UHGV virus genome: UHGV-0382128
From: a virus
DNA: 64,000 bases
Direction: 5' to 3' (one strand)
The position numbers and the translations under genes are program-made. The notes under the pieces are model-generated. The model made no database searches. It saw only the letters and a list, made by a program, of their open reading frames with translations, and was not told where the DNA came from. This document shows, one piece after another, positions 26,417 to 47,928 of the stretch (positions are counted from its first letter, which is position 1; each line of letters opens with the position of its first letter).

Positions 26417-27083
26417 ATGATAAGTCTTAAAAACATACGCGACAGATTAGTGACGGCGGAGGGATATATCACCACCGCTAATGCAAACAACTATATTGCA
26501 AACCAAGGAACGGTTTCCTCAACCAACAATCTCGCAGGATTACCTTTAAGTCATTATAATTGTAATGGCGGATGTAGTTGGTCGTGCAGCGGTAGCTGTA
26601 GTAAGGGGGCGGGGGGGGGTAAGTAAGCCCTCTAGCGGTGGTTCTACGCCAACCCCTTCAAGACCAACCTACGACAACAAAGCCGTTGTTTATGTTGAGT
26701 CTAAGCTACACGCTAAAGATACTGTTCGTATCAATTTCTCTACTGGGGCTGTCTTTATTCAATGCGTAACGTCAACCGGTAGAGAGAAACCGATAAGGGT
26801 CTTTAAATCGTTACTGTCTGGAAAGTCCTACGCCTACCCTCAAGTTGCAATGGGTAATGGTATCACTGTTAATTTTACAGACGCGGCTAGTTTTAAGATA
26901 GACTCTATCGGTAATGCATCTTCTGCTTCTATCTCATTAGAAGTATTAAGTAATTCCGGCGGAAGCATGGCGATTACGCAGCAACCGAGTAAATCAAACG
27001 GCTTTACTGCAGAATTTGAAGTTACCGGCAGGCAATGGCGTGGCGGGTTCTATACCTTGAACGTCAGATTGACCGTAAAATAA
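26417..27083 (+). CDS. Cys-rich precursor-like module 3 apparently fused to a C-terminal domain; reading frame interrupted at a G-tract (26605-26619)
   Basis: ORF 26417..26626 (leader plus short core ...HYNCNGGCSWSCSGSCSKGAGGGK*) and ORF 26565..27083 join into one frame if the G9 run is 8 or 11 long, continuing into a Pro/Ser/Thr linker (SKPSSGGSTPTPSRPT) and a domain of about 150 aa. Confidence 0.45.
26605..26619 (+). repeat. homopolymeric tract GGGGGCGGGGGGGGG inside coding sequence
   Basis: G5-C-G9 counted directly; coincides with the frame change between ORFs 26417..26626 and 26565..27083. Confidence 0.9.
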
Positions 27084-27095
27084 TTGGAGTAATCA

Positions 27096-27983
27096 ATGAA
27101 AAACGATTTGCATTTAGCCTATAAAACAATTTTCAACCACCCACTTCATATTTCTTCCCCCGATTCAATACGCGCTCATTTGGAAGATAAAGTTCGTTTG
27201 TTAACCCAGTTACCTGGCGAATGGCCCAAAGTGCGTGGTCGTTTTTTTACCGATCGCAATAACTATTCAGTAGAAAACACTTTTAAAATACGCGATCTGA
27301 CAGCAGAAAGCGTAGTGGTGTTTACCGGTGATTCAGATTTACGCGGTAAATTGGTTGACGGTAAATATTTCTTTAGTGACGGTATTCTGAATAATTCTGT
27401 AGATTTGGAATTGTTCTTTACGCCATTTAAAGAGTTGAATGCGAAGCCTGTAGCACGACGTTGGTGGTCTCCAGACTATCTTGGTTCATTCCCGTACTTT
27501 TATGCCCTGGTTCCTGTAGAAACAAAAAACTATGTTGATACTGAACCGTATATTGAAATAGAAGGTTACGAGGAACTTGGCATCAACTGTTTAGCAGATC
27601 TGATGGCGTACAGTTACAAATTTATGTGGGATCGTGAACGTTCAGTATGGGTTGCCCTTACAGATGAACATGAAATCACAAAACGTATTCGTAAACCATG
27701 GATGCAGCATTTAATTCAAACACGTATTGGTGAACATCCGTCATCGGAAGCAGATTTAGCGAAACTTGTTAGTTTCTTAATGACGAAAGTCACGTTAACT
27801 GATGAAGAAAAAGCGGCAGTGTCGGCGGTATTGGAACGTAACGTAACGTTAGCGGATCTAGAACGTTTAAACGTGCGTTATAAAGACCTTAATCGTATTA
27901 TTGAGGCTTACAATTCACCGTTTGTATTAAAACCTGGAGTTAACGCTTACGACGATCCTTTGTTATCCATTGGCTATATTTAA
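27096..27983 (+). CDS. hypothetical protein (295 aa) inside the radical-SAM cluster
   Basis: GGAG RBS; no recognisable motif; position between precursor 3 and rSAM paralog 2. Confidence 0.55.
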   Translation: MKNDLHLAYKTIFNHPLHISSPDSIRAHLEDKVRLLTQLPGEWPKVRGRFFTDRNNYSVENTFKIRDLTAESVVVFTGDSDLRGKLVDGKYFFSDGILNNSVDLELFFTPFKELNAKPVARRWWSPDYLGSFPYFYALVPVETKNYVDTEPYIEIEGYEELGINCLADLMAYSYKFMWDRERSVWVALTDEHEITKRIRKPWMQHLIQTRIGEHPSSEADLAKLVSFLMTKVTLTDEEKAAVSAVLERNVTLADLERLNVRYKDLNRIIEAYNSPFVLKPGVNAYDDPLLSIGYI

Positions 27984-27989
27984 AAATAG

Positions 27990-28928
27990 ATGGACTCACC
28001 TGCAATGACAACCGACGTAGAGCCAAGGTTATCGAATCGTTTATACAATAAACCCACCGTATTGTCCGTAGTTGCTACATCCAAATGTAATCTGGACTGT
28101 AGCTTCTGCGGCGGAGCCTATTACATGCATCGTGAAGATTCTCCGCGAGAGTTTCAACGTGAACGAATTTTGAAAGCGTTGGCGTCTAACCCAACCATTA
28201 CTGAAATTCAGTGGACTGGCGGTGAACCGCTACTGGCAACTCGAAAGATTGAGGCGTTTGTCGACGAATTAAAAACGATCCGTCCTGAACTCAAACACCA
28301 GATGTTCACGAACGGTTTAAAAATGCGTAAATCGCATCTACCGTTGTTAAAACAATTCGATGGTATATATGTTAGCATCGATGGGTTTAATCTTTCTGAA
28401 CGGCCTTTTAAGCGCTTTATTGATGATAATTGTCATGAAGCGTTAGAAGTAATTTACAGCTTGAATAATGTTAACACCTGGGCTGTTGTTACGAGGGAGA
28501 ATTTATCCAATAAAAGATGGCATGAAGATATCATTCAATTACATACTGCTATCTATCATTACGGTTTTCGTTCCATGTCCTTATTACTAGATAAAAACAT
28601 GCCAAAACCGTTATCTCCCGATCACGTTATGAACTTTATTTACGGGTATTTTAGAATTCAGGAGAATATAGAAAGATTAAACGTTCTAAATTCTAGAGAC
28701 TGCGGTTTTATTGTAAACAGATTCTTCGATCATGCTTGTAATGTCTGTAGCGAAAGTCTCAGGATAGACGCGGACGGGGAAGAAAACCAACTTAAAAATG
28801 TACCAATAACTACAAAAGCAGGGTGTAACCAACTAGCCTCCTCAATAGGTGTAGAAGCTTACGAGTACATTCGTCGTGTAGTGATGGCAGAGCGTAATAG
28901 AGGGGCGGAAAATGAGTCAAGAAAATAG
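27990..28928 (+). CDS. radical SAM enzyme, paralog 2
   Basis: TSKCNLDCSFCGG; three blocks of 100 percent nucleotide identity with rSAM paralog 1 (54, 38 and 84 nt). Confidence 0.75.
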   Translation: MDSPAMTTDVEPRLSNRLYNKPTVLSVVATSKCNLDCSFCGGAYYMHREDSPREFQRERILKALASNPTITEIQWTGGEPLLATRKIEAFVDELKTIRPELKHQMFTNGLKMRKSHLPLLKQFDGIYVSIDGFNLSERPFKRFIDDNCHEALEVIYSLNNVNTWAVVTRENLSNKRWHEDIIQLHTAIYHYGFRSMSLLLDKNMPKPLSPDHVMNFIYGYFRIQENIERLNVLNSRDCGFIVNRFFDHACNVCSESLRIDADGEENQLKNVPITTKAGCNQLASSIGVEAYEYIRRVVMAERNRGAENESRK

Positions 28929-30234
28929 TTATCCTAAACAACTGACTTATCAAATTGTTACAAATTTATCGTGTAACTTGGACTGTGAGTATTGTTACGA
29001 ACGTAAGTATCCCCGTAATAACAAAGCGGCGGATATTGTTGATTTTCTACACGCTTGTTTTGAACGAGATAAAGATCTGACAAACATCGAGGTCGTTATC
29101 GATATCATCGGTGGTGAGCCGTTTATGCAGCCTAAACTATTAAAGGCGGCATTTGAAACCGCAGAAGAGTTATGCGAAAAACATAATCGGCCGTTTATGT
29201 TTAGCATCTCTACTAACGGAACGTTGTTAGATAGACCTTTGAATAGAGAAATTATTGAACGTTGGAAAGACAGGCTTTCTATCGGCGTGTCTATTGATGG
29301 ATTGCCCGAATCGCACGATAAGTACCGGATTTTTACAACAACTCGTGAAGGATCTTACGAGGCCGCTGTGCGGGGCTATAACTACTTAAAAGAAGTCGGT
29401 ATTGCAGAACTTGGTGTAAAAGCGACCTTTACGTTGGAAACGTTACCGTTCTATGCTGCTGGAATGAAATCATTAATTGATATTACTGGCGGCGGAACTA
29501 TTTCTGGCAACGTAACCTTCGAAGACATTATGCCACGGAGCATGGCTACTTCAATCGCATTGCAGATGATGGACGTGGTAGATTATTGGGTTGAGAAGGG
29601 CTTACACACCAACCCACGTAACACTTTGTCGCACATCATTCCAGACGGGTTAGATTTTGATACTATCTGGGAACCAAACTGGCGTGATCAGTTATTGTAT
29701 AACGATACTGTACGTTTGAATCCAGAACGTTTACGCCCGTTCTGCGGTACGTTAACACACATGACATGCTTAGGATTTGATCGTAAGATCTTCGGTTGTA
29801 ACCGTTTCATGTCAACCGTAACATCACGTTCTGCCGTATTTGAATTAGTTGGGCGGGAATTTGTTAGCTTAGATGACGGGAAATTGCTGGAAGAGATTCA
29901 GACGCAATACACCAACTATCCTGAAACCTGTTTAGGTTGTCCAATGAAGCACGCTTGTGGTAGTTGTGCGGCTGCATCTTACGAGAATGGAGAAGGGACG
30001 CTAGAAGATCGCAAAGCTTATCACGCTGAACGCCGTCAATGTGGCTGGACAACTGCAAAGTTGATGGTTGCGGAATATTGGAAACAGAAAATGGGCACGA
30101 CGTCAGTGAAAGATTTTCATGACAATAGCATGTGTTATTGCCCTCGTTGCGTACGTGAACGTACCCAGAAAGAAAAACAATTGAGAGAAACCAAAGATGA
30201 AGCCAATTCTGATCCACAATATTACGAAGCGTAA
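28912..30234 (+). CDS. radical SAM enzyme with SPASM-like C-terminal Cys-rich domain (anSME-like architecture)
   Basis: N-terminal SCNLDCEYC (Cx3Cx2C); C-terminal CLGCPMKHACGSCAAASYENGEG and further Cys; start overlaps the stop of rSAM 2 by 17 nt. Confidence 0.75.
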   Translation: MSQENSYPKQLTYQIVTNLSCNLDCEYCYERKYPRNNKAADIVDFLHACFERDKDLTNIEVVIDIIGGEPFMQPKLLKAAFETAEELCEKHNRPFMFSISTNGTLLDRPLNREIIERWKDRLSIGVSIDGLPESHDKYRIFTTTREGSYEAAVRGYNYLKEVGIAELGVKATFTLETLPFYAAGMKSLIDITGGGTISGNVTFEDIMPRSMATSIALQMMDVVDYWVEKGLHTNPRNTLSHIIPDGLDFDTIWEPNWRDQLLYNDTVRLNPERLRPFCGTLTHMTCLGFDRKIFGCNRFMSTVTSRSAVFELVGREFVSLDDGKLLEEIQTQYTNYPETCLGCPMKHACGSCAAASYENGEGTLEDRKAYHAERRQCGWTTAKLMVAEYWKQKMGTTSVKDFHDNSMCYCPRCVRERTQKEKQLRETKDEANSDPQYYEA

Positions 30235-31468: not shown

Positions 31469-31490
31469 GTTATAGTAGTTGACTTAGCGA

Positions 31491-32021
31491 TTAAGCAGTA
31501 AAGCCGTCAAGTTCACCGTCGGTGGTGGCCAGGTCAATACGATTATCAACAACTTTCGGCGTAATTACGAAAGTTGCCATTACACCCGGTTTATAACGGA
31601 GGTTCTTTTCAGTAACGGTACACGTTACCGTACGCAGAGTGACGCTATCGTGTTCGTCTTTCTGGTCTTCGGTGGTGTACTCAACGTCACCAGGTGCGAT
31701 AGAGTCGTCAGGTTTTACTTTATTGATGTAAAACTGTAATCGGTCGCGTAGTTCGTTTTCTCCAGTCCAGAGAGCCAAATCGTCCGTTACCTCAATGCGT
31801 CCGACAACGCCAGGTTCCAGACGATCGTAATGCAGTTCGATTGCGCCTTTAAAATTTTCAGACTCTGTACGTGCGGTCATGGTAACTTTGGTATTTTTAT
31901 CGCCCTTTTCAAGAGCGACAGGTTGACCAAAAGTTACCTCTTTATCAGTGACCTGATGCGGTAGCTCTGTGTTAGCAGCATTATAAAGCGCAACTAACAT
32001 CATCTGGTTAGTAGCTGCCAT
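31491..32021 (-). CDS. small beta-rich protein, member of a 6-copy paralog family (putatively virion or fibre associated)
   Basis: Shares N-terminal pattern and C-terminal GELDGFTA with 32090..32620; weaker similarity to 35297, 35775, 46811 and 53418. Confidence 0.55.
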   Translation of the reverse strand: MAATNQMMLVALYNAANTELPHQVTDKEVTFGQPVALEKGDKNTKVTMTARTESENFKGAIELHYDRLEPGVVGRIEVTDDLALWTGENELRDRLQFYINKVKPDDSIAPGDVEYTTEDQKDEHDSVTLRTVTCTVTEKNLRYKPGVMATFVITPKVVDNRIDLATTDGELDGFTA

Positions 32022-32072
32022 TATCTTAAATCCTTAAAATGAAAGTTAAAGAAATATCGGGGGAGGTTACCA

Positions 32073-32082
32073 CCCCCCCCCC
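32073..32082 (+). repeat. C10 homopolymer (G10 on the coding minus strand), intergenic
   Basis: Counted directly; lies between the stop of 32090..32620 and the RBS of 31491..32021. Confidence 0.9.
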
Positions 32083-32089
32083 GAATCAA

Positions 32090-32620
32090 TTACTCTTTAG
32101 GCGCTGGTGCGGTGAAGCCATCCAGTTCACCTTCCAAACCGTTCAGTGCTACTTTCTCAATAGCCGGAGGAGTAACTTTATACGTTGCAACAGTACCTGG
32201 CAGGAACTTCAGGTGTCCAGCCACAACAGTTACTACGTAAATGGTTTTGCCTTCTTCTTCACGAGAAATAGTTTGCAGGTCGTTTTCACCGAATTCGTCA
32301 TCGGTGTACCCCTTCTCAACCATGGCTGCGTTAACTTTTGCCAGGATTTTCGTTGGTGAATCGAAATCGGTAGTAGGTGCAGTTACTTCAACTTCACCAA
32401 CGATGTCGCAGGAAAGACGAGTATAGTGGAATTCTTTCTCGCCTTTGAAGTTCTGGCTTTCTGCCTTGGCGGTCAGAGTAATTTTAGTGTTGCGGCCAGC
32501 TTCTCCGGTGAAGTCAGCGACAGCACTAAAGTCAACATCAGCTACGGTGAGAGCGGAGTTCAGAGAGCTGTTTTTAGTGTTAATAAGTTCGATAAGCTGC
32601 TGTTGAAAAGTTTTAGCCAT
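32090..32620 (-). CDS. small beta-rich protein, same paralog family
   Basis: 176 aa; C-terminal GELDGFTAPAPKE; pattern LIELINT...TKITLTAKAESQNFKG...HYTRL. Confidence 0.55.
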   Translation of the reverse strand: MAKTFQQQLIELINTKNSSLNSALTVADVDFSAVADFTGEAGRNTKITLTAKAESQNFKGEKEFHYTRLSCDIVGEVEVTAPTTDFDSPTKILAKVNAAMVEKGYTDDEFGENDLQTISREEEGKTIYVVTVVAGHLKFLPGTVATYKVTPPAIEKVALNGLEGELDGFTAPAPKE

Positions 32621-35296: not shown

Positions 35297-35761
35297 TTAG
35301 CGAGATGGCTTGGCTGGCGCTGCGGCGACAGACGGTTTACGCGCAACACGCACTGTAAAACCACCGACCCAGGTTAGACACTCGGGGCGGAAGAAAATAC
35401 CGTGCTCGATTGCACTGCCGTCTAGCGGTAACGCACCAACCTGCTCTACCCATACATCGTCTTCTGTAAGGGTTAAGCCATACTGCTCGTTAATTACAGG
35501 CAGCAAGTCCGCAGTCGTGGTTGCTGCCTCAACTAACAGTTTCGGCAATACGTTGTGGAAATACAAACCTGCATCAATGCGGTTATACTGGAACGTTTGC
35601 TTATTAACATAACCGAGATTCTTAACCGGCACAACCGTAATTTCGGTGTTGTACGTACCGGTACTTACGACGGGCTCACCCAATGTGACTTTGGCGGTGT
35701 CGAGCTCGGCGTCTGGGTTAGCCTTTTTAATAAGGTCGAAGATAGTTTCTTGACTGGTCAT
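35297..35761 (-). CDS. small beta-rich protein, paralog family member
   Basis: 154 aa; pattern IFDLIKKANP...VTLGEPV...TEITVVP..F.YNRI. Confidence 0.5.
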   Translation of the reverse strand: MTSQETIFDLIKKANPDAELDTAKVTLGEPVVSTGTYNTEITVVPVKNLGYVNKQTFQYNRIDAGLYFHNVLPKLLVEAATTTADLLPVINEQYGLTLTEDDVWVEQVGALPLDGSAIEHGIFFRPECLTWVGGFTVRVARKPSVAAAPAKPSR

Positions 35762-35774
35762 TACTGTAATCCTC

Positions 35775-36623
35775 TTAATCTAAGAATCCAGGTAAGACCG
35801 AATTAGTCTTGGCTAATTCAATCTTCGACTTCGGACGATCGGTTCCGTTAAAGTGAATTAACAGTTTACCGGTCAGGTTAGAACACATACCGCTTAGGGC
35901 GAGTACCAGCACACGCGTGTACTTCGCATTTGCGCCTTCGAAACCTGCGGTAGGGCCATCGTAGATAACCTTAGCACCGAACAAGTTATTAGCAGCGTTC
36001 TTAGGTACGCTTACCCATTTCTCATCAACAACGTTAGTCAGTTTAGTAGCTAACTCTACTAAGTCTACGGTGCCGTTGATGGTAATTGGATCAAGGTAAT
36101 CTTTTTCTGCGGTGAAGTCAATTGGGTAAGAATAAACCGCAGCGTTACCTTTCTTAGTGGACGGATACTCTACCAGGTTTTCTAATTGAGTAACAGGCAG
36201 CAATTTAGCCAGATCAATAGGATCGCGTAGCGTAAGCGTCACTTCGCCACACCACTCGTAAGATTTCTCGTTAGCGGTAAGTTGGTGGGTTTTACCTTCA
36301 ACTTTCGCATCAACGATATCCGATGGCAGAATATTTAAATCGTATTTTGCGTTGATTGCGTTAAGCAAATCTGAGGCGGTTACAACACCGTCGTTACCGA
36401 ATACCAACTCACCTGTTAGGTATTCGGGCAAATTACGACGATGGTAAGTCACCGTTAAAGTAGTAGACTCATCGCCTTTGAGTTTAGAAGTCAGAACCAC
36501 CTGGGTATCAACCCCAGTACCAGTAGGTTCGCCGATATCAACATCACTGAAGGTCAATGGCGGAACAATATTGTTTTCAGTGTTGATGAGTTTTAGCAGT
36601 TTCTGTTTTGACGTAAGAGACAT
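35775..36623 (-). CDS. paralog family member with C-terminal extension (282 aa)
   Basis: N-terminal LLKLINTENN...FSDVDIGEP...LTVTYHRR pattern. Confidence 0.5.
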   Translation of the reverse strand: MSLTSKQKLLKLINTENNIVPPLTFSDVDIGEPTGTGVDTQVVLTSKLKGDESTTLTVTYHRRNLPEYLTGELVFGNDGVVTASDLLNAINAKYDLNILPSDIVDAKVEGKTHQLTANEKSYEWCGEVTLTLRDPIDLAKLLPVTQLENLVEYPSTKKGNAAVYSYPIDFTAEKDYLDPITINGTVDLVELATKLTNVVDEKWVSVPKNAANNLFGAKVIYDGPTAGFEGANAKYTRVLVLALSGMCSNLTGKLLIHFNGTDRPKSKIELAKTNSVLPGFLD

Positions 36624-37272: not shown

Positions 37273-37290
37273 TTGTACGAATTTAGTTAA

Positions 37291-38445
37291 TTAACGATGT
37301 TTCTGACAAGCAGGGCAAACGCAGACTACGCCAGAAGATATTTCTCTAAAGAGCGCGTCGATCGTGTGCTCATTATCCTTAAGAAAACGAACTGACCGCA
37401 AGTCACTCAGATGAGTTTTTAACTTTCCAATAATACCGGGTTCATAGTTGAGCATAATGGTAAGTGTATTGTTTGTGTAAGTCCACTGACGGACTTTCTC
37501 AGGAAACCAACGAGTGATATCACGCATAAACGTATCGGCATCTTCTTTTCCAATAGCAATGATTGTCAGAAGACGTAGCCGATCGTTAACAATATCGTCA
37601 ATGAGATCACGAATTTCATCTCCCAGAGAAAGGTCGTCTAACGGGAGTTTAATGGTGAGCTGTTCGCCCTCGAGTTTAGTTTCTACCCTGCTGGAGTAGA
37701 ATGCTGCCAAGGTATCATTAATATCTTTGGCTTCTGGGCCAGTATAATTAATGGCATCCTGTCTTTCGCCGCATTTACGGGAATTTTTCTTTATTAACTC
37801 ATCCATACGGGTGCGTAGCTGATTAATAACAACAGGGTCTTTATCAACAAGTACAGTTAGAGTGTCGCGAACATAATTAGACTGGTGAATTTTCTCCTTG
37901 TGTTCGTGAACAGCCCCACGCATGAATTCGTCCGCTTCACTTTTTCCGATACCTTGAAACGAAATAAGTAGAACGGCGCCGTTATCGATCAGCTCAGCGA
38001 TAGAACGTACTTCTTCCATGAAGTTACGATCGTCTTTCTTCAATCGAACGACGAGTTTGCTGTTATCCCAGTAAATACCTAAATCGCCGGGATAGAAGGT
38101 CTCTAACACCTTTTTAATTTGTTCAATATTTTCGCCTTCGTACCAGAGGACGTGAGGTTCGTCTTTCTGCTGTTCTTTGACTTTCGGTTGCTCTGTCTCG
38201 GCCGCTTTTGCCTTGGCGTTTGCGGCTACCGGGTTGAGCAACTCACCGATTTCCACCGCAATAGTGTCAGAAACGTACTCACTGCTGTCAGTCCAGTAGA
38301 ATACGATGCTTTCATCGTTGACCTGCTCTACACGGAAATGTACACCTTTATCCAGGAATATGCGATAAAGTTGATCAAGTAACTGTGCTTCAGGAACCGG
38401 ACGGATTTCAGTTTTAACGAGCGGAGTAATTTCGATATTAAACAT
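37291..38445 (-). CDS. hypothetical protein with internal duplicated domain (384 aa)
   Basis: Two similar segments (about aa 150-215 and 290-350); domain recurs in 42416..43258. Confidence 0.55.
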   Translation of the reverse strand: MFNIEITPLVKTEIRPVPEAQLLDQLYRIFLDKGVHFRVEQVNDESIVFYWTDSSEYVSDTIAVEIGELLNPVAANAKAKAAETEQPKVKEQQKDEPHVLWYEGENIEQIKKVLETFYPGDLGIYWDNSKLVVRLKKDDRNFMEEVRSIAELIDNGAVLLISFQGIGKSEADEFMRGAVHEHKEKIHQSNYVRDTLTVLVDKDPVVINQLRTRMDELIKKNSRKCGERQDAINYTGPEAKDINDTLAAFYSSRVETKLEGEQLTIKLPLDDLSLGDEIRDLIDDIVNDRLRLLTIIAIGKEDADTFMRDITRWFPEKVRQWTYTNNTLTIMLNYEPGIIGKLKTHLSDLRSVRFLKDNEHTIDALFREISSGVVCVCPACQKHR

Positions 38446-41849: not shown

Positions 41850-42365
41850 TTACCCCCGGTGCAAGAAAATACGGTTAGTGTTTTCGAATTTCGGTTCTGT
41901 CCACTCCAGTTCCCAGTAAGCCTGGTTAATATCGCGAGACGTGAGTTTCAAATTCGAAACGCCGGGGATTTCGATCTGCTGCAGTAAATTAATAATCGTC
42001 ACCAGCTCTTTACGAGGACGGTTCCAGATAACTTCAAGATACTCTTTCAGACGCTCTGGGTAAGCAACGGGGCGAATATAAACTAGCCCAGTGGGATACT
42101 CAATTGCTGAGGGTGTTCTTGGCACTAACCAAACCCAGTCTTTTAATAGCGGCCCTGAGTGGTAGTTAGAGAGTTGAGTAAGCGCATTTGCGACCGAACA
42201 ACAACGGAAGTAGGTGATATCCCAATCGTGTTCATGGCAATTTCGCGCAACGATAACTTTTAAACGGTCAATAGGTTTACCGTCGATGGTCGTAACACCA
42301 GGTTGATTCGCCAGAATCTGACGTTCACGTTTAGTATAAAGATTCATGTTAATATTTACTGACAT
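41850..42365 (-). CDS. hypothetical protein
   Basis: ORF 171 aa. Confidence 0.5.
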   Translation of the reverse strand: MSVNINMNLYTKRERQILANQPGVTTIDGKPIDRLKVIVARNCHEHDWDITYFRCCSVANALTQLSNYHSGPLLKDWVWLVPRTPSAIEYPTGLVYIRPVAYPERLKEYLEVIWNRPRKELVTIINLLQQIEIPGVSNLKLTSRDINQAYWELEWTEPKFENTNRIFLHRG

Positions 42366-42391: not shown

Positions 42392-42401
42392 GGGGGGGGG
42401 G
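42392..42401 (+). repeat. G10 homopolymer (C10 on the coding minus strand), intergenic
   Basis: Counted directly; between the stop of 42416..43258 and the RBS of 41850..42365. Confidence 0.9.
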
Positions 42402-42415
42402 TAGTTAATGCTTCG

Positions 42416-43258
42416 TTATTTAAGATTCTGAATTTCTCTCATCTCGTTACAAAACTTATCAAACAACTGGGCGTATTTGTCAATGTGATTTTCGAACTCC
42501 CCAAAAAGGTGGCGTGAAAGGCGTTCGCTGACTTCCTTTTCGTATTTCTCGAGAAGTTGTTTAAAATATTCACTGTCTCTCTTAATTTTCTTCACATGGG
42601 ATTCCAAAACTTTAAGAATCCATGATTCGTTTCTGATCAAGAGATTCAAATTACCTTCAAGATATTTGCTTTGATAAATCATAAATTCGCGGCCTTCGAG
42701 TTCATCTTTCACGCGTCGGATAAACTCGCCAGCATTGGCTTCGCTAATATCTTCAACTGTAAATACCAGAACATTTTCTCCCTCTATGTCTTCCAATAGT
42801 TGATTTAAAAGAACACGATAGCTAGTATATTCATAGTTCACCCTAAGTACGTTGTTTTCAACCAGATAAGTGAATTTGTCGCTGTAAAAAAGGTATAATA
42901 TCGATCCAATTTTACCTGCTTGTTTGGGGGTAAGCGGAATCTCGTCTGTGAAGTAAGCGACGTCTTTTGCGGTGGGCTTGTCTTTTAGCCTACAAGTCAT
43001 TTGATCGGGTATTTCTTGCCCTTTAGGCATCTCAACAGGCCGTACCAAAATATCCATAACTGCACTAATGAGCTTGTTAGAGAAATCGACCTCGCCTTCT
43101 ACCCAGAAAATATTAAATGTTTCCGATTTAACTTTATAGTAAAAGGTGTACGTTTTTTGTAACTCAGCGATTTCCTTAATTTGTTCTTCAGTGGGGATAG
43201 GGGAGATCTTAAACCTGCTGATGACTTTTTCTTCTTCGGTGAGTTCGAACTGTAACAT
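42416..43258 (-). CDS. hypothetical protein sharing a repeated domain with 37291..38445
   Basis: Segment VFTVEDISEANAGEFIRRVKDELEGREFMIYQSKYLEGNLNLLIRNESW resembles the repeat in 37291..38445. Confidence 0.5.
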   Translation of the reverse strand: MLQFELTEEEKVISRFKISPIPTEEQIKEIAELQKTYTFYYKVKSETFNIFWVEGEVDFSNKLISAVMDILVRPVEMPKGQEIPDQMTCRLKDKPTAKDVAYFTDEIPLTPKQAGKIGSILYLFYSDKFTYLVENNVLRVNYEYTSYRVLLNQLLEDIEGENVLVFTVEDISEANAGEFIRRVKDELEGREFMIYQSKYLEGNLNLLIRNESWILKVLESHVKKIKRDSEYFKQLLEKYEKEVSERLSRHLFGEFENHIDKYAQLFDKFCNEMREIQNLK

Positions 43259-43269
43259 GTTATAGTTCC

Positions 43270-43713
43270 TTAAATCATACCTGGGAATTCGAAATCGATT
43301 TTATCTAAAAGTTTGTAGTCGTCTTTTAGTTGAAGCATTAGTGTATTCTTAAACAGTTCAAGTGAACCGATAAAGTAAGCCGTATAGCAGCTACCACGAA
43401 CAGAAGAGGAAAGACCCAAGTCTCTTAAACACTGTTTCAAGATTTCATGTTCTTCAGCGGTACCGAAAAGTTGGAAATTGATAACGGTAATATGTTTATT
43501 AATGATTGCCGATAACCATTCTTTAATTCTTCTCGTGGTTATACGTTCTTTGAAATCACTAGCTTCTGGCAACCAGGTAATGTGAACAAACGGTGCATCG
43601 TAATCCACGAGAACTTTCTGCTGCCAACGTACTTGCATCAAACCACGAATACGGTTTGCTAACGTTTCAGAATCACAAAGCAACATAATGCCATTAGTAG
43701 TATTTGGTTTCAT
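43270..43713 (-). CDS. hypothetical protein
   Basis: ORF 147 aa. Confidence 0.45.
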   Translation of the reverse strand: MKPNTTNGIMLLCDSETLANRIRGLMQVRWQQKVLVDYDAPFVHITWLPEASDFKERITTRRIKEWLSAIINKHITVINFQLFGTAEEHEILKQCLRDLGLSSSVRGSCYTAYFIGSLELFKNTLMLQLKDDYKLLDKIDFEFPGMI

Positions 43714-44561
43714 AATTGCCCTTCCTTCTTAATGTAATCTTCAACCAACTTATCAAACACGATTTTTATCTTCTCGCGTTCTTCTTCACCCAATTCACCA
43801 GAACAGGTCAGCCCATTTATCTTCCCGTACCGTAATTCCAACACATATTTCAACCGATGACGTAAGGCTTGTTCAAAATGTGTCGGGATATAGATCGGTT
43901 CGAAGTTGTGCAATAAAATAAAATCGTCTTCGGTGTGTTTAGGGGGTTCGAATTTTACTCTATCTAAGATAGTAAGCCAGCGTTGTCTGTCGACTAGCCG
44001 ATCGTCCCAATAAACAGGTTTTGTTTTAGAGGGGGTAAGTGTATTGTAGTTACTGGAATCGGAGATACGGAAATTTGCTGTGACGTAAGTCTTCGTGAGT
44101 AACGAGAGAAGACAGATCGTTCCTTCTTCAGAGTAGCTTAAACCCTCCTCGAGTACGTCTTTAGCTTTCTTGAAGTAGTCTTCAATATAGTCTTCAGCAA
44201 TTGGTTGAATCTCTACTTCTATAGCGCTAATTTGAGGTCCGTCTATCCGTAAAGGAAATTTTAGCTCAGCAATATACTGCCTATCCGATGTATAGGCGCG
44301 TGTAACAATAGGGTAAGTAACAGGCTTAGCCAAATGACGATATTCATCATCTCTAATGACTGAGTAACGTCCAAACCCACCTTTATTCGATTTTGAAAAA
44401 GCGTAAAGGTCTTTTAGATACTCTAGATACTGGCCATCTGTCATTTCATCGGTATTAAATTCACGAATATAAAGTCGTTCAACAAATCCCTTTGTTTGTT
44501 CGTAGTAATAACTGGGATCCCTATTTGCTAGAATGCGCGGGAGATAATACGGGTGTGACAT
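43710..44561 (-). CDS. hypothetical protein
   Basis: ORF 283 aa. Confidence 0.5.
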   Translation of the reverse strand: MSHPYYLPRILANRDPSYYYEQTKGFVERLYIREFNTDEMTDGQYLEYLKDLYAFSKSNKGGFGRYSVIRDDEYRHLAKPVTYPIVTRAYTSDRQYIAELKFPLRIDGPQISAIEVEIQPIAEDYIEDYFKKAKDVLEEGLSYSEEGTICLLSLLTKTYVTANFRISDSSNYNTLTPSKTKPVYWDDRLVDRQRWLTILDRVKFEPPKHTEDDFILLHNFEPIYIPTHFEQALRHRLKYVLELRYGKINGLTCSGELGEEEREKIKIVFDKLVEDYIKKEGQL

Positions 44562-44589
44562 CTAATCCTCCTTTTCGGCTATAACTAAT

Positions 44590-44636
44590 GGAGTGAACGT
44601 AAATTTCACTCTCTCTCCTAGGTAATATATATCTGA
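44590..44636 (-). promoter_or_regulatory. conserved promoter-like motif plus leader stem-loop, copy 4
   Basis: TTCTCAGATATATATTACCTAGGAGAGAGAGTGAA...; preceded by terminator hairpin 44649-44683. Confidence 0.5.
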
Positions 44637-44683
44637 GAAAAAATATAAAAACCGTAGGATGGACTTAGTCCATCCTACGGTTT
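44637..44683 (-). terminator. rho-independent terminator
   Basis: AAACCGTAGGATGGAC-TAAG-TCCATCCTACGGTTT hairpin then TTATATTTTTT on the minus strand, after the tailspike gene. Confidence 0.7.
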
Positions 44684-44686
44684 AAA

Positions 44687-46807
44687 TTAAATAACTACCC
44701 AGCTTTTACCATCGGAACCAATCTGCATTAGCGTAATACTTTCATTGGTATCAATGGGTTTGGCAAGACCTTCTGTCCCACTCTTTGGAGTGATGAGAAC
44801 GTTTGAATTTTCCGGTTTAACGGTGATCTTACCAGCCTTATTTGCCACGATCTGAATATTTCTGCCCACGCTATATTCTAGATCAGGAATAGTAAGTTGG
44901 CCGCCACGGTTGGTGGGTGGGAAATACACATAAGACGACACATCTTCCTCAGATAACACTATGCTACCAGAATCACGATTGACCGAGATCTCAAACTTAG
45001 AAATATCGATATCATAGGCAGTAACTTTCGTAATATCCGTCAGAACCAATTCGTTCAAATCGGTCTTAGCTGGACTGTTCGCCAGATCAAATGGAGTACC
45101 ATTCGTACCGTCCAGCACAGGTGTGACTGTGGTTTTATTGGCACCAGGATAAATGATTTCAAGCGTATGCCAGTTATTATCGTACGCACCAAAAGTTCCT
45201 AATTTCGCATTCTGCTTTTTATGATGCATCAGATTAAGATTCTTAGCGTCGGTCTGTAAGAAAAAAGACATTAGGTACGGGTTTGTATCAGCCACACTAG
45301 CGTCAGCAAGTGTAGTACCAGAAGGTAGGTCGGACGCGGAGATACGCCAATAAAGCCCTAAGCCGAAACGATTTTCTGCTAAATCACCTTTTAGTCTAAA
45401 AGTAACGGTCAGTCGTCCACCGTAACGTATCATGTCCGCAGCAGATGTCATTGACTTAGTTACATTCCAAGGTTTCATCGTTACAGCCTTTCTTAATTCG
45501 ACGAAATGCCCGTTTCCATCCTCAGAATCTTGCACGGTTACGTTACAATCAACGATATTGTTCCAACCCTGCCCTTTCAGGGAACCATCTCCACGACGTC
45601 CGTTATAACCCACAGACTCTACTAATGGGGTATAGCTTCTTACCACATTCATATTGTCTTTGAGCTCTTTAGTGTCGTTCTTCGTCAGGAGCATTGCACC
45701 ATTCGCTGTTCTTGATAATATCTCAGCAGCTATTCTCTCTGAGATAATACCGCGTCGTGCCCAAGAACTGAAATGGCTATTCCTTGTTTCAGACGTCCAG
45801 TTTTTATTACTACGGGTGGCAGCACCGTAGTAGGCAGCACCAGCGATATCAGGATCGTCAGTGGGATCATTAGTCGGTACACGTTGGCCATTATCGTCGT
45901 ACATGAATGGAACAAAAAAGATATTTTTTTGTTCATTGTTACGATAATTACCGTATATGGTTTCATATTGAACAGGATATTTTTCCTTCCAATAGTAGGT
46001 AGTGTCCCCGCAGATCCATGGTACTTCGGCGGTGTCGTACTCGGGCATCTGAGAGAGATGGTCAGAGAGATCAGTTCGGAAACGCTCTACCATTGCCATA
46101 AATAACGCTGGTTGTTGTGCGTAACCTACTTTAGTCAGATCATACTCCCCCTGCATCCACACTACAGCCAAGAGTTTATTTTTAGGATTAACGTCCAGAG
46201 CTTTTTTGGTCCGGCTAACTAAATCTTTATAAAGAGGTTTTTCCACCCCCCATACCGATGACGTCGCAGAGGCTCCTGTGGCTTCATCGAAGGTACCTTC
46301 TGCACCACCCGTGAAAGCAGAACCGCCGCGTGCGCAGGGTACTAGTAAGATACCAGCGTTGCTAGGAATATACGGGAGAAGACGCTTCGCGATGTGTAGA
46401 CCTTGACCCACACATCCGTATTCACCTTTGTCCAAATTGGCTTTGGGGTGCGAGAATACGGACATATCTTGCACGTCGTGCAGACAGTGATCCGCTGGAA
46501 TGACGTCGTTATACTTACAATCAGCCCCGTTAGGCGTTACCTTCGCACGGCGCGCCATCTGTTTAATTCGCGGATCGGGAGCGTCCAACGTCGCCGGTAG
46601 AGGCAACCCTTCACCATAACTCATCGCATTAGATTGCCCGGCTATAGGAATCACGAAGTAATACTCCGGCTCCGTCGTGCCCTGAAGTTTTGCAATATCA
46701 ATTTTATATTCTTTTTCTTCCTTAGAAAGAAGAACTAACGCACCTTTGAGATCGCCAGAGAAATTGTCGAGTTCATGGATACGTTTCTTTCCAATTGGCT
46801 GACTCAT
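44687..46807 (-). CDS. tailspike/fibre protein with SGNH (GDSL-type) esterase-like domain
   Basis: GQSNA motif at about residue 56; N-terminal KKRIHELDNFSGDLKGALVLLSKEEKEYK shared with the 1479-aa fibre (KKIRLHDLHPYTGDIGEGVLLFSKDEKDYK), suggesting a common attachment domain. Confidence 0.6.
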   Translation of the reverse strand: MSQPIGKKRIHELDNFSGDLKGALVLLSKEEKEYKIDIAKLQGTTEPEYYFVIPIAGQSNAMSYGEGLPLPATLDAPDPRIKQMARRAKVTPNGADCKYNDVIPADHCLHDVQDMSVFSHPKANLDKGEYGCVGQGLHIAKRLLPYIPSNAGILLVPCARGGSAFTGGAEGTFDEATGASATSSVWGVEKPLYKDLVSRTKKALDVNPKNKLLAVVWMQGEYDLTKVGYAQQPALFMAMVERFRTDLSDHLSQMPEYDTAEVPWICGDTTYYWKEKYPVQYETIYGNYRNNEQKNIFFVPFMYDDNGQRVPTNDPTDDPDIAGAAYYGAATRSNKNWTSETRNSHFSSWARRGIISERIAAEILSRTANGAMLLTKNDTKELKDNMNVVRSYTPLVESVGYNGRRGDGSLKGQGWNNIVDCNVTVQDSEDGNGHFVELRKAVTMKPWNVTKSMTSAADMIRYGGRLTVTFRLKGDLAENRFGLGLYWRISASDLPSGTTLADASVADTNPYLMSFFLQTDAKNLNLMHHKKQNAKLGTFGAYDNNWHTLEIIYPGANKTTVTPVLDGTNGTPFDLANSPAKTDLNELVLTDITKVTAYDIDISKFEISVNRDSGSIVLSEEDVSSYVYFPPTNRGGQLTIPDLEYSVGRNIQIVANKAGKITVKPENSNVLITPKSGTEGLAKPIDTNESITLMQIGSDGKSWVVI

Positions 46808-46810
46808 CTA

Positions 46811-47323
46811 CTACTCTCCAAAAGTTAAGATTTTATTGTCAAACGTCAACACGACAGAATCATCACCGATGCCACACGGTGTTTCATCTGGGCCGAAAAC
46901 CACCACGGAGAACTGTCCTTTATAAGCGATGGAATTCGGAGCGATGCTAAGCGTTACCGCGTCTTTACCTACCGTGAACGACTGGTCGGTTAAATCGTCG
47001 GTTTGTAAGTTAGCACCACAAACGGCATTGACGGATTCGATAAGATCGTGTGCATTAAACCCTTCACCTCTTACTTTTACCAGAATAGGTTGTTGGTTTA
47101 ACCACCGCTCTGCGGTTAAACGGTTGTAGTAGATTTGCAACGTTCTGTTTCCAGGACGTTTAATCTTTACAATGGCAGTGGAGTCACGATCCATTTCATC
47201 ACTGGTTTTTACGTCACTGACTTCAACCTCGTTCTCTTGCAAGTCAAGTTGGAGGTCATGGTTAACCAGTGAAATAACCATGTTAAGTGAAGTTAGTGAT
47301 AAATCTGGTGTGAATTTTTCCAC
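46811..47323 (-). CDS. small beta-rich protein, paralog family member (GTG start)
   Basis: Pattern LSLTSLNMVISLVNHD ... IYYNRL; paralog 53418..53978 sits in the equivalent position upstream of the other fibre. Confidence 0.5.
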   Translation of the reverse strand: MEKFTPDLSLTSLNMVISLVNHDLQLDLQENEVEVSDVKTSDEMDRDSTAIVKIKRPGNRTLQIYYNRLTAERWLNQQPILVKVRGEGFNAHDLIESVNAVCGANLQTDDLTDQSFTVGKDAVTLSIAPNSIAYKGQFSVVVFGPDETPCGIGDDSVVLTFDNKILTFGE

Positions 47324-47377
47324 GTATGTTTACCTCCTACGGTTGGGGGTCATAAAATATTGACTAAAAAACATTCA

Positions 47378-47387
47378 CCCCCCCCCC
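47378..47387 (+). repeat. C10 homopolymer (G10 on the coding minus strand), intergenic
   Basis: Counted directly; follows a 12-bp AT-rich stem-loop (47389-47420) after the stop of 47422..47865. Confidence 0.9.
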
Positions 47388-47421
47388 ACGATTATTTTCA
47401 ACCGCTTTCAGTTGAAAATAA

Positions 47422-47865
47422 TTAGCTAATTCTCAAATCACGCAGTGCGCCTGTCGATTTCATCACGTTTTGGAACGCGCCACTGATGTTATTAGTCCAG
47501 TAATAATGCTGTCCGTTAATAACCTGCTGATAGGCCAGCGCGCAGGTGTTACCACCTAAATTTACGGTAATGTTAGAGGCTCTGCCTCCTTGTAAGTAAA
47601 CCGCTAAAGTAGGCTTTGCGTTGGCAACTATCGTCGTTAACTGTAACTCAATACCTACTAAAGTTCCCACCCCGCAGTTACCCGCGTTTTGAATGGTTCC
47701 CTGATTTTTCTGGTTTAACGGCCAGCTTGGTCCTACCGCGCCCCATTTCTTACCTAAAGAATCGCTATATGCAGCGGTTGCAATTTTACAGCCCATAGAT
47801 CGTCCCACCATTTGACTCATCATAAAAGGTCTACCCAATCCTAATTTACTACCAGCAGCGCTCAT
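47422..47865 (-). CDS. receptor-binding-like protein, paralog of 48184..48729; true start probably upstream at 47930 but frame broken by a G10 tract
   Basis: Track ORF starts at an internal ATG; an upstream ATG (47930) with AGGAG RBS is followed by 10 G then TAA. With 8 or 11 G the frame reads MGGGVTGSWVGSSAKNETGEQW-MSAAGSKL..., matching the paralog N-terminus MGVASGWVGSSAKAVTGQEW-MSVAGNKL. Confidence 0.55.
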   Translation of the reverse strand: MSAAGSKLGLGRPFMMSQMVGRSMGCKIATAAYSDSLGKKWGAVGPSWPLNQKNQGTIQNAGNCGVGTLVGIELQLTTIVANAKPTLAVYLQGGRASNITVNLGGNTCALAYQQVINGQHYYWTNNISGAFQNVMKSTGALRDLRIS

Positions 47866-47918
47866 CCATTGTTCGCCCGTTTCGTTCTTGGCCGAAGAAC
47901 CGACCCACGAACCGGTTA

Positions 47919-47928
47919 CCCCCCCCCC
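47919..47928 (+). repeat. C10 homopolymer (G10 on the coding strand) directly after the start codon of the receptor-binding-like paralog
   Basis: Counted directly; length determines whether the N-terminal 22 codons are in frame. Confidence 0.9.

What the first reader, a model, noticed from the sequence alone, without database searches (positions are those of the whole stretch)
26605..47928. Five G/C homopolymer tracts of 9-10 nt in one 64-kb window
Tracts at 26611-26619 (G9), 32073-32082 (C10), 42392-42401 (G10), 47378-47387 (C10) and 47919-47928 (C10). In a roughly 45 percent GC sequence, a single 10-nt G or C run would be rare by chance (my rough composition estimate, not computed). Three are intergenic, placed between a stop codon or hairpin and the next RBS; two interrupt coding frames. 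They could be slippage-prone regulatory or phase-variation elements, or systematic sequencing-error hotspots.
Basis: partly seen in the sequence, partly recalled or inferred. Interest (0 to 1): 0.6.

Follow-up and report, generated by a model that had tools for sequence, protein, structure and literature searches.

The report
Slippage-prone poly-G tracts in jumbo phage
Five 9-10-base runs of G or C in a gut jumbo phage are real and change length between natural strains; two switch reading frames on or off, one of them in a spare tail-fibre adhesin gene, which is a known kind of phage switch found here in a new phage group.

Summary
All five tracts sit at the stated coordinates. Markov simulations expect 0.07 such runs in 64 kb, and the window has no G/C runs of 7-8.

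The window is a Seoul-like (SPN3US-related) jumbo phage of about 225 kb, found in many gut metagenomes and in Enterobacteriaceae isolate assemblies. Across 20 related contigs that differ by 0.1-6%, every tract varies in length (8-11) while its flanks stay fixed. G/C runs of 5-6 show no length slippage.

The tracts are not one functional class:
- **T5 (47919-47928)** begins at the G of the start codon of a second gp38-like tail-fibre adhesin. G8 or G11 is ON; G9 or G10 is OFF. Both states are common in nature and the gene is under purifying selection, so this looks like a contingency locus.
- **T1 (26611-26619)** ends a conserved 68-residue Cys-motif protein and gates a C-terminal extension that is almost always out of frame, yet intact.
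- **T2 and T4** are the G-rich arms of conserved hairpins upstream of DUF7941 genes. They are the only long G/C runs in a complete relative genome, and their length changes look neutral.
- **T3** is a young, lineage-specific intergenic tract.

Sequencing error alone does not explain this. It is a new member of a known kind (Campylobacter phage polyG tracts; T2/T4 contingency loci).

The parts
26611..26619 (+). T1: G9 tract on the sense strand. It encodes the terminal Gly residues of a 68-69-aa Cys-motif protein and separates them from a 150-aa C-terminal ORF in another frame.
   Evidence: G9 reads GGG GGG GGT AAG TAA and G10 reads GGG GGG GGG TAA; both are OFF. G8 or G11 fuses to the downstream frame. 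Natural lengths are G9 x4, G10 x5, G11 x1 (L020, called as a 222-aa fused ORF), and one interrupted GGGGAGGGGG.
26417..26626 (+). Short product of the T1 gene (69 aa): a leader-like N-terminus, then CNGGCSWSCSGSCS, then GAGGG. It is a paralogue of the Cys-rich 132-aa protein at 26015-26413.
   Evidence: phrog_6085 positions 2-66 of 129. The same 67-68-aa module, ending without a long tract, is present in SPN3US and in L030/L031.
26620..27083 (+). C-terminal extension ORF of the T1 gene, reachable only with G8/G11 or by slippage during expression.
   Evidence: It has no internal stop in any of 11 strains and pN/pS is 0.20. Homologues occur only in this phage group. It is degraded in relatives whose tract is interrupted. 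An unrelated 160-aa ORF sits in the same frame relation behind a G9 tract in the Enterobacter relative.
32059..32082 (-). T2: G10 (C10 on the + strand at 32073-32082) forming the 5' arm of the hairpin G10-UGGUAA-CCUCCCCC. It lies between two tandem DUF7941 paralogues (32090-32620 and 31491-32021).
   Evidence: The minimum free energy is -22.2 kcal/mol with z = -2.7. The energy plateaus at 8 or more Gs. The element is conserved with G8-G11 and variable loops (GA/TGA/TAA/TGGTAA) in more than 15 relatives.
42392..42401 (-). T3: C10 on the sense strand. It lies 14 nt after the stop of gene 42416-43258 and 26 nt before the start of gene 41850-42365 (phrog_8180).
   Evidence: It is present only in the window, L002 and L007 (C10) and L008 (C8). 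Six other strains carry AATCACACCACC instead, and in L011 the adjacent gene is deleted and the site could not be anchored. No structure is predicted.
47345..47387 (-). T4: G10 (C10 on the + strand at 47378-47387) pairing with ACCCCC 28 nt downstream and enclosing an AU mini-hairpin. It lies just upstream of the RBS of DUF7941 gene 46811-47323.
   Evidence: Natural lengths are G9 x4, G10 x5, G11 x1 and one G-A-G10. The orthologous tract is present in L022, L023, L025 and CP173450. L024 and the Enterobacter relative carry the variant GGAGGGGG...CCCCCTACC.
47919..47928 (-). T5: G10 on the sense strand whose first G is the G of the start codon (A at 47930, T at 47929) of the second gp38-like adhesin gene. 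The RBS AGGAG is at 47941-47937.
   Evidence: G10 reads ATG GGG GGG GGG TAA. G8 or G11 reads through to the stop at 47422. Natural lengths are G8 x1 (L002, called as a 168-aa Gp38_N protein), G9 x4 and G10 x6.
47422..47930 (-). gp38b: a phase-variable accessory tail-fibre adhesin (168 aa when ON).
   Evidence: The truncated ORF matches phrog_1121 only from profile position 23 and Gp38_N only at positions 21-40 (26 bits). The ON protein matches Gp38_N at 2-40 of 40 with 67 bits. The ORF is intact in 11 of 11 strains and pN/pS is 0.07.
47943..53210 (-). Context for T5: tail-fibre gene (48771-53210, 1479 aa, gp37/gp34-like), primary adhesin gp38a (48184-48729, start ATGGGGGTA with G5), and a Cor-like exclusion gene (47943-48173).

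Best explanation
The five tracts are genuine hypermutable mononucleotide repeats in a Seoul-like (SPN3US-related, Chimalliviridae) jumbo phage. They most likely gain and lose single G:C pairs by slipped-strand mispairing during replication; that step is inferred. They arose where point substitutions merged shorter G runs. They persist at sites where +/-1 changes are either useful or harmless.

**T5 (shown by sequence and natural alleles).** The tract starts at the G of the ATG of a second, horizontally acquired gp38-type adhesin. With 8 or 11 Gs the gene is in frame (MGGV...). With 9 or 10 it stops after 4-27 codons. Natural populations hold both states. Because a first adhesin, gp38a, is constitutive, switching gp38b would give a mixed virion population with different receptor specificity. 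That phenotype is inferred.

**T1.** The tract ends a conserved 68-aa Cys-motif protein. With 8 or 11 Gs it appends a 150-aa all-beta domain. Genomes are nearly always G9 or G10, so the extension is made either by rare ON genotypes or by -1/+1 slippage during expression. Which route is used is unresolved.

**T2 and T4.** These are the 5' arms of conserved G/C hairpins in front of DUF7941 virion-protein genes. They probably act as mRNA-stabilising or attenuating stem-loops. Once the run is at least 8 nt, its length is nearly neutral.

**T3.** This is a recent intergenic tract that is probably neutral.
For: **The tracts are real and non-random.**

All five G/C runs of 9-10 nt are length-polymorphic among 11 strains. 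Among the 24 runs of 5-6 nt, none shows slippage polymorphism; the one that varies does so through a large deletion. The closest pair of strains, with 26 SNPs in 21 kb, differs by an indel only at T1. Lengths 9 and 10 are interspersed across SNP clusters, which indicates recurrent change.

**T5.**
- An ON allele (G8) is called as a 168-aa Gp38_N protein in L002.
- The ON protein restores a full Gp38_N match.
- Among the 15 cluster members listed (40 of 328 were read), 17 contigs are ON and 13 are OFF.
- A second lineage (MGGVASGW) also has ON and OFF members.
- Start sequences form a series: ATGGCG, then ATGGGGGTA, then ATG+G8, then G9/G10.
- pN/pS is 0.07 and no strain has an internal stop.

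**T1.**
- An ON allele exists in L020.
- The C-part is intact in 11 of 11 strains and pN/pS is 0.20.
- The C-part is degraded where the tract is interrupted, and intact where it is a pure G run, including a different domain in the Enterobacter relative.

**T2 and T4.**
- They are the only G/C runs of 7 or more in the complete 221,873-bp relative genome.
- Arms are conserved while loops vary.
- A sibling hairpin, GGGGGAGG...CCTCCCCC, shows the A-to-G origin of the run.

**Precedent.** Fletchervirus polyG tracts in receptor-binding genes (Sorensen 2021) and phage contingency loci are described in bioRxiv 10.1101/2025.10.21.683753.
Against: - No reads were available, so heterogeneity within a sample, switching rates and reversibility are unmeasured.
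- Assembly consensus at G9-G11 can carry +/-1 errors.
- T1 is ON in only 3 of about 128 contigs. That fits poorly with a classical ON/OFF switch and better with slippage during expression, or with strong selection against ON.
- T4 pairing shows only one-sided changes and no compensatory pairs. Its fold is not better than shuffles (z = -1.0).
- The function of the hairpins is inferred.
- pN/pS rests on few substitutions.
- No host-range phenotype is known.
Confidence: 0.72

Rival explanations
1. Programmed recoding rather than genetic switching. The tracts at T1, and possibly T5, are slippery sites where the phage RNA polymerase adds or drops a G, or where tRNA-Gly slips -1 at GGG GGG GGG TAA. 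Every genome would then make mostly the short product and a little of the long one, as with the tail chaperones G/GT.
For: - In the G10 state both T1 and T5 read GGG GGG GGG TAA, and the productive frame is exactly -1.
- T1 is out of frame in about 125 of 128 contigs, yet its C-part is intact and under purifying selection.
- The out-of-frame arrangement is kept in the Enterobacter relative with a different C-domain.
- From general knowledge, not tested here: runs followed by stop codons ('shifty stops') promote frameshifting, and long homopolymers promote transcriptional slippage.
Against: - Tract length is not fixed. G9 and G10 are both common and need opposite shifts. Programmed sites are normally invariant.
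- No significant downstream stimulatory structure is predicted.
- For T5, in-frame G8 genomes are common, so DNA-level switching clearly operates.
Confidence: 0.3
2. Neutral mutational hotspots only. Runs that pass about 8 nt expand to 9-11 and survive merely where indels are tolerated: intergenic DNA, the last codons of a short gene, and the first codons of a dispensable adhesin. None is used by the phage.
For: - All five sit at indel-tolerant positions.
- The bimodal length distribution suggests a slippage threshold.
- T3 is lineage-specific.
- A/T runs in intergenic DNA also vary between strains.
- In the T2 hairpin, length is energetically neutral at 8 or more Gs.
Against: - The frames downstream of T1 and T5 are intact in all strains with low pN/pS. 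The T1 C-part degrades once the tract is interrupted.
- T2 and T4 are conserved at orthologous sites across relatives at about 76-82% nucleotide identity. They are the only long G/C runs in a 222-kb genome.
- A gp38b G8-ON allele also occurs in a second lineage.
Confidence: 0.2
3. Sequencing or assembly artefact. The tracts have one true length each, and the frameshifts and length differences are homopolymer miscalls.
For: Homopolymers of about 10 nt are error-prone in PCR-based libraries and in long-read data (general knowledge). No reads could be inspected.
Against: - The same two or three lengths recur in many independent assemblies from different assemblers and sources. For T1, 83 contigs give the 68-aa product and 42 give the 69-aa product.
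- Flanks are identical while lengths differ.
- Runs of 5-6 nt show no slippage polymorphism.
- Interrupted variants and orthologous tracts exist in distant relatives.
Confidence: 0.05

Closest known systems
Hypermutable polyG tracts in receptor-binding-protein genes of Campylobacter Fletchervirus phages (Sorensen et al. 2021, Cell Rep 35:109214; cited in PMC12823448 and in bioRxiv 10.1101/2025.10.21.683753)
   Same: Both have G runs of 7-11 nt inside a phage host-recognition gene. Length changes shift the frame and yield phage subpopulations with or without that protein.
   Different: - The phage family and host differ: a Seoul-like chimallivirus of Enterobacteriaceae, at 44% G+C.
- The gene differs: a T2-type gp38 adhesin.
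- The tract sits at codons 1-4, and a second constitutive adhesin lies next to it.
- No sequence homology was tested or is expected.
- The phenotype has not been tested here.
Phage contingency loci in T2 and T4 (Gomez, Barrick & Waters, bioRxiv 10.1101/2025.10.21.683753)
   Same: Both involve homopolymer repeats in coliphage genes that give reversible frameshifts by polymerase slippage. Intergenic repeats are noted there too.
   Different: - Their loci are mostly A runs of 6-9 nt in genes such as agt and rIIA, with mutant frequencies of about 1e-3.
- They report that such repeats are under-represented in tail-fibre genes.
- Here the tracts are G/C runs of 8-11 nt, alternative alleles dominate whole natural populations, and one lies in an adhesin gene.
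Bacterial contingency loci with poly-G/C tracts (Campylobacter, Neisseria, Haemophilus)
   Same: Both use a mononucleotide tract near the 5' end of a surface-interaction gene, with ON/OFF set by tract length modulo 3.
   Different: Here the tract is carried by a virus that replicates with its own family B polymerase. By inference from its family, replication takes place inside a phage nucleus away from host mismatch repair.
Programmed frameshift or transcriptional slippage sites (tail chaperone G/GT, dnaX, IS elements)
   Same: For T1, a short product and a longer product share an N-terminus and are separated by a slippery run next to a stop codon.
   Different: The run varies in length between strains. 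No conserved heptamer or stimulatory structure is present.
Alternative tail-fibre switching by DNA inversion (Mu Gin/G segment, P1 Cin/C segment)
   Same: The inferred outcome is the same: a phage population split between two receptor specificities.
   Different: The mechanism differs, being repeat slippage rather than site-specific inversion. The window's fibre protein shares sequence with P1 S, but no invertase or inverted-repeat system was looked for or noticed near it.

Membership tests
SSR-mediated contingency locus (phase variation by slipped-strand mispairing) | A simple sequence repeat lies inside an ORF or its expression signals. | tested here: met
   T5 covers codons 1-4 of gp38b and T1 covers the last codons of the 68-aa gene. 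T2, T3 and T4 are intergenic.
SSR-mediated contingency locus (phase variation by slipped-strand mispairing) | A change in repeat number switches the product between full-length and truncated. | tested here: met
   For both T1 and T5, translation of the G8/G11 versions against the G9/G10 versions shows the switch. Natural ON alleles were called as ORFs in L002 and L020. The Gp38_N match is restored in the ON protein.
SSR-mediated contingency locus (phase variation by slipped-strand mispairing) | Repeat length is polymorphic among otherwise closely related genomes. | tested here: met
   
SSR-mediated contingency locus (phase variation by slipped-strand mispairing) | The switchable gene is kept functional by purifying selection. 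| tested here: met
   No strain has an internal stop. pN/pS is 0.07 for T5 and 0.20 for the T1 C-part. The number of substitutions is small.
SSR-mediated contingency locus (phase variation by slipped-strand mispairing) | Switching is high-frequency and reversible within a clonal lineage. | not testable with these tools
   This needs reads or plaque-lineage sequencing. Only homoplasy across strains was seen.
SSR-mediated contingency locus (phase variation by slipped-strand mispairing) | ON and OFF states differ in phenotype under alternating selection. | not testable with these tools
   No host-range or adsorption data exist.
T2-type gp38 tail-fibre adhesin | A Gp38_N domain is present and the gene lies downstream of a gp37-like distal fibre gene. 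| tested here: met
   PF21721 matches at 67 bits for the ON gp38b and 73 bits for gp38a. phrog_1121 also matches. The fibre protein matches T6/PST long tail fibre proteins.
Programmed ribosomal frameshift or transcriptional slippage site | The slippery motif is invariant across relatives. | tested here: not met
   T1 is G9, G10 or G11 in natural strains, and the tract is interrupted or absent in relatives.
Programmed ribosomal frameshift or transcriptional slippage site | A stimulatory structure or SD-like element flanks the site. | tested here: inconclusive
   The fold around T1 is no better than shuffles (z = +0.4). A stop codon immediately follows the run in the G10 state.
Programmed ribosomal frameshift or transcriptional slippage site | Two products are made from one genotype. 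| not testable with these tools
   This needs proteomics or RNA sequencing.
Rho-independent terminator | A G+C-rich hairpin is followed directly by a U run. | tested here: inconclusive
   The T2 hairpin is strong (-22.2 kcal/mol), but its tail GAUAUUUCU is U-poor compared with this phage group's usual terminators, which carry 9-10 Us. The sibling hairpin at 53245-53264 is flagged as terminator-like.

The most novel reading that the evidence does not exclude
A nucleus-forming, persistently infecting jumbo phage of Enterobacteriaceae uses poly-G tracts as a deliberate diversification system. One tract toggles a second gp38 adhesin and so shifts the virion population among Salmonella, Escherichia, Shigella or receptor variants. 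Another uses a 'G-run plus stop' signal to append exchangeable C-terminal domains to a small Cys-motif, radical-SAM-associated protein, through slippage at either the DNA or the expression level. Replication inside the phage nucleus, away from host mismatch repair, would make these tracts exceptionally mutable.
Probability: 0.25. Interest if true: 0.7.

Novelty: new member of a known kind. Interest (0 to 1): 0.5.

Why it matters
Seoul-like jumbo phages are common in infant-gut metagenomes. They also persist inside clinical Salmonella, E. coli, Shigella and Enterobacter isolates, and they are being considered for therapy. A frameshift switch at the start of an alternative adhesin would let a single stock hold subpopulations with different receptor specificity. 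That affects host-range measurements, the evolution of resistance and the annotation of these genomes: the adhesin and the T1 extension are usually mis-called or left out.

The data also give a natural test of how homopolymer length relates to mutability for a phage-encoded polymerase. Runs of 5-6 nt are stable and runs of 8-11 nt are unstable. The decay of the T1 extension wherever its tract is interrupted shows that a hypermutable tract can keep an out-of-frame ORF under selection.

Tried and rejected
- **Exact-flank scans.** Searches for T5 in JGI metagenomes and for T1 in IMG/VR found nothing. Larger samples came from cluster counts instead.
- **Structure of the T1 C-terminal domain.** The AlphaFold2 model has mean pLDDT 46 and is all-beta. 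It was too poor for a fold search, so none was run. Pfam gave no hit on the fused protein, PHROGs gave none on the 172-aa ORF that carries the domain, and homologues exist only within this phage group.
- **A shared promoter motif.** T2 and T4 share AATC-Gn-TGA. The genome-wide search shows this motif occurs only at these two sites, so it is not a general promoter. Sigma-70-like matches in the region are no more frequent than in shuffles.
- **Small upstream ORFs starting just after the T2 and T4 tracts.** Their peptides are not conserved and a 1-nt indel breaks the T2 frame between relatives (reading). Rejected as weak.
- **G-quadruplex.** A single G10 run cannot supply four G-tracts with loops, and no further G-tracts lie nearby (reading). 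Not pursued.
- **Deletion of gp38b by recombination between the T4 and T5 direct repeats.** No such deletion variant was seen in the 10 loci L002-L011 that cover this region.
- **Close relatives in INPHARED.** None exists at the nucleotide level. Relatives came from ENA assemblies, IMG/VR, RefSeq E. coli replicons and PLSDB.
Full report
**1. Observation**

The window is 44.1% G+C.

The distribution of G/C run lengths is bimodal. There are 30 runs of 5 and 5 runs of 6, none of 7 or 8, then one of 9 and four of 10. Order-1 and order-3 Markov simulations give a mean of 0.065-0.075 runs of 9 or more per window, and never more than one in 200 trials. The Poisson probability of five or more at mean 0.075 is 1.9e-8.

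Relative to local gene orientation, four of the five tracts are G on the sense strand. T3 is the exception, being C on the sense strand.

**2. What the window is**

Nucleotide matches to isolated phages are weak. The family B DNA polymerase of a close relative is 80% identical to that of Salmonella phage SPN3US.

Exact protein look-ups show the same phage, about 225 kb long, on many ENA gut-metagenome contigs. One window protein is indexed in 192 blocks of the collection. It also appears in NCBI assemblies of Salmonella, Shigella and E. coli isolates.

Two relatives are filed as circular 'plasmids': E. coli 98232 (CP173450.1, 221,873 bp) and Enterobacter ludwigii (CP134650.1). This matches the 'Seoul-like' persistent chimalliviruses described in bioRxiv 10.1101/2024.12.31.630880.

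**3. Length variation in nature**

Twenty loci of about 20 kb from different samples were aligned to the window. They differ from each other by 0.1-6% in SNPs. The tract flanks are conserved while the lengths vary:

| Tract | Lengths seen (window plus 10 loci) |
|---|---|
| T1 | G9 x4, G10 x5, G11 x1, one interrupted GGGGAGGGGG |
| T2 | 9 x1, 10 x9, 11 x1 |
| T3 | 10 x3, 8 x1; different sequence in six loci; site unanchored in L011, where the adjacent gene is deleted |
| T4 | 9 x4, 10 x5, 11 x1, one G-A-G10 |
| T5 | 8 x1, 9 x4, 10 x6 |

- All five G/C runs of 9-10 nt are length-polymorphic. Among 24 runs of 5-6 nt, none shows slippage; the one that varies does so through a large deletion.
- The closest pair of strains, with 26 SNPs in 21 kb, differs by an indel only at T1.
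- Lengths 9 and 10 are interspersed among SNP clusters, so the changes are recurrent.
- Intergenic A/T runs also vary between strains, though less consistently.

Because dozens of independent assemblies give the same alternative lengths, consensus error cannot be the main cause. Read-level confirmation was not possible.

**4. T5: a frameshift switch at the start of a second adhesin**

On the sense (minus) strand the sequence is AGGAG-ATCGCG-ATG GGG GGG GGG TAA. The first G of the tract is the G of the start codon.

The ORF downstream (47422-47865) matches tail-fibre adhesin families only from profile position 21-23 onward. Its N-terminus is therefore missing. With 8 or 11 Gs the ATG at 47930 reads through as MGG(G)VTGSWVGSSAKNETGEQWMSAAG.... 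This 168-aa protein gives a full Gp38_N match at positions 2-40 of 40 with 67 bits, against 26 bits for the truncated form.

L002 carries G8 and was called as a 168-aa Gp38_N protein. Among the 15 cluster members listed (40 of 328 were read), ON forms lie on 17 contigs and OFF forms on 13. A second lineage (MGGVASGW) also has both ON and OFF members.

Homologues elsewhere start differently:
- ATG GCG GT in L022 and L024;
- ATG GGG GTA (G5) in L025, in E. coli element CMS-2020a, and in the neighbouring gp38a of this window.

The tract therefore grew from a G5 by a 3-nt gain and then became unstable.

The gene has no internal stop in 11 of 11 strains, and pN/pS is 0.07. Its neighbours are a 1479-aa fibre protein with T6/P1-like segments, the constitutive adhesin gp38a and a Cor-like exclusion gene.

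The most likely working is as follows. Slippage toggles gp38b, so progeny carry either gp38a alone or gp38a plus gp38b at the fibre tip. The genotype logic and the natural alleles are shown. The host-range consequence is inferred.

**5. T1: a tract that gates a C-terminal extension**

ORF 26417-26626 encodes 69 aa ending ...CSGSCSKGAGGGK*. It matches the first half of phrog_6085, as does the neighbouring Cys-rich 132-aa paralogue.

With G8 or G11 it fuses to a 150-aa ORF. L020 (G11) is called as a 222-aa fused protein. Counts are lopsided, though. The 68-aa form (G10) is on 83 contigs, the 69-aa form (G9) on 42, and the 222-aa form on 3.

Even so, the C-part is open in all 11 strains, and pN/pS is 0.20. 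Relatives clarify the picture:
- SPN3US, L030 and L031 have only the short gene and no long tract.
- L026, L028, L029 and CP173450 have interrupted tracts (GGGGGGAAGG, GGGGGGAGGCAGG) followed by deleted or stop-ridden remnants of the C-part.
- The Enterobacter relative has a pure G9 followed by an unrelated 160-aa open frame in the same frame relation.

So an intact extension goes with a slippery tract. That argues the tract gives real access to it.

Whether access comes through rare ON genotypes or through slippage during expression is unresolved. In the G10 state the run is followed by TAA and the productive frame is -1.

The C-part has homologues only in this phage group. Its AlphaFold2 model is too poor to use, at pLDDT 46.

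**6. T2 and T4: arms of conserved hairpins**

In the complete relative genome CP173450.1 there are only two G/C runs of 7 or more in 221,873 bp. They lie at the sites orthologous to T2 (C9) and T4 (C10).

*T2.* On the sense strand T2 is G10-UGGUAA-CCUCCCCC, between two tandem DUF7941 paralogues.
- It folds at -22.2 kcal/mol with z = -2.7.
- In more than 15 relatives the 3' arm is invariant, the loop varies (GA, TGA, TAA, TGGTAA) and the run is 8-11 nt.
- Predicted stability plateaus at 8 or more Gs and falls below that. This explains both why the run is kept and why its length drifts.
- A sibling hairpin upstream of the fibre gene is GGGGGAGG...CCTCCCCC in CP173450. This suggests the pure run arose by an A-to-G change that RNA pairing tolerates as a G-U pair.

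*T4.* T4 pairs with CUCCCC or ACCCCC about 28-31 nt downstream, depending on the relative, enclosing an AU mini-hairpin just upstream of the RBS of DUF7941 gene 46811-47323. L024 and the Enterobacter relative carry GGAGGGGG...CCCCCTACC instead. The alignment fold shows only one-sided changes, and the single-sequence fold is not better than shuffles. This structure is therefore less secure than T2.

T2 and T4 share AATC-Gn-TGA, a motif found nowhere else in the genome. They are probably paralogous, duplicated along with the DUF7941 genes.

Their role is inferred: an attenuating terminator, an mRNA-stabilising hairpin or a processing site. The phage's ordinary terminators carry runs of 9-10 Us, which T2 lacks.

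**7. T3**

T3 is C10 on the sense strand. It lies 14 nt after a stop codon and 26 nt before the start of a phrog_8180 gene. It occurs only in one sublineage, as C10 or C8. Six other strains carry AATCACACCACC at that site, and in L011 the adjacent gene is deleted. No structure is predicted. It is most simply a recent, tolerated tract.

**8. Comparison with what is known**

PolyG tracts of 7-11 nt in receptor-binding genes of Campylobacter Fletchervirus phages are the nearest precedent (Sorensen et al. 2021, as cited). A 2025 preprint defines phage contingency loci in T2 and T4, and reports that homopolymers are under-represented in coliphage tail-fibre genes.

T5 meets the sequence-level criteria of a contingency locus. 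Switching rate and phenotype could not be tested. T1 fits neither a classical switch nor a programmed frameshift cleanly. T2 and T4 are better described as hairpin arms than as switches.

**9. Verdict**

The slippage reading is right and the sequencing-error reading is largely wrong. Phase variation is well supported for one tract, plausible for a second, and unlikely for the other three.

This is a new member of a known kind, in a phage group where it had not been noted. It has practical consequences for annotation and for host-range work.

Noticed in passing
window 25042-30234 (also L037 8030-9645): One Cys-rich CxxxC-repeat protein (26015-26413; two copies in the Enterobacter relative), the 68-aa Cys-motif protein of T1, and three radical SAM genes (25042-25956, 27990-28928, 28912-30234) sit together. 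The layout recalls a RiPP-like precursor-plus-maturase set, or a cross-linked virion protein.
   Followed up: partly
L027 5772-5969 (SPN3US NC_027402.1, about 143200-143397): A conserved 67-aa ORF, 91% identical to the T1 N-module, lies unannotated between gp100 and gp101 of the reference phage SPN3US.
   Followed up: partly
whole window; CP173450.1 and CP134650.1: This jumbo phage group is deposited as circular 'plasmids' of about 222 kb in closed E. coli and Enterobacter genomes. It also appears in many Salmonella and Shigella isolate assemblies, matching the 'persistent virulent phage' Seoul-like cluster of bioRxiv 10.1101/2024.12.31.630880.
   Followed up: partly
window 47773-47907: A 135-bp stretch at the 5' end of gp38b is 96% identical to 109-kb E. 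coli elements: phage CMS-2020a and the replicons NC_018651.1 and NZ_CP022085.2 of O104:H4 strains. This points to recent exchange of adhesin cassettes between unrelated phages.
   Followed up: partly
window 31491-32620, 35297-36623, 46811-47323, 53418-54011: At least six DUF7941 / 'virion structural protein' paralogues are scattered through the fibre region. Copy number varies between relatives: one in SPN3US, two here at the T2 site, and three in L030.
   Followed up: partly
window 53995-54002; CP173450 genome-wide: Intrinsic terminators in this phage group end in runs of 9-10 T on the sense strand. The one at 53995-54002 is A8 on the + strand here and 9-10 in other strains, so A/T terminator tails also slip.
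   Followed up: partly
window 49870-49989: A 120-bp in-frame segment of the 1479-aa tail-fibre gene is missing in one strain (L002, fibre called as 1439 aa). This suggests gain or loss of a repeat unit in the fibre shaft.
   Followed up: no
window 42409-43258 and 37285-37950: The 280-aa gene next to T3 is entirely absent in L011. The gene at 37291-38445 is replaced by a different cassette in most strains. The region is a mosaic of exchangeable genes.
   Followed up: no
window 44687-46807: A 706-aa protein with a SASA (sialate O-acetylesterase-like) domain and DUF6645 lies directly downstream of the T4-associated DUF7941 gene. It is a likely glycan-modifying tail protein.
   Followed up: no
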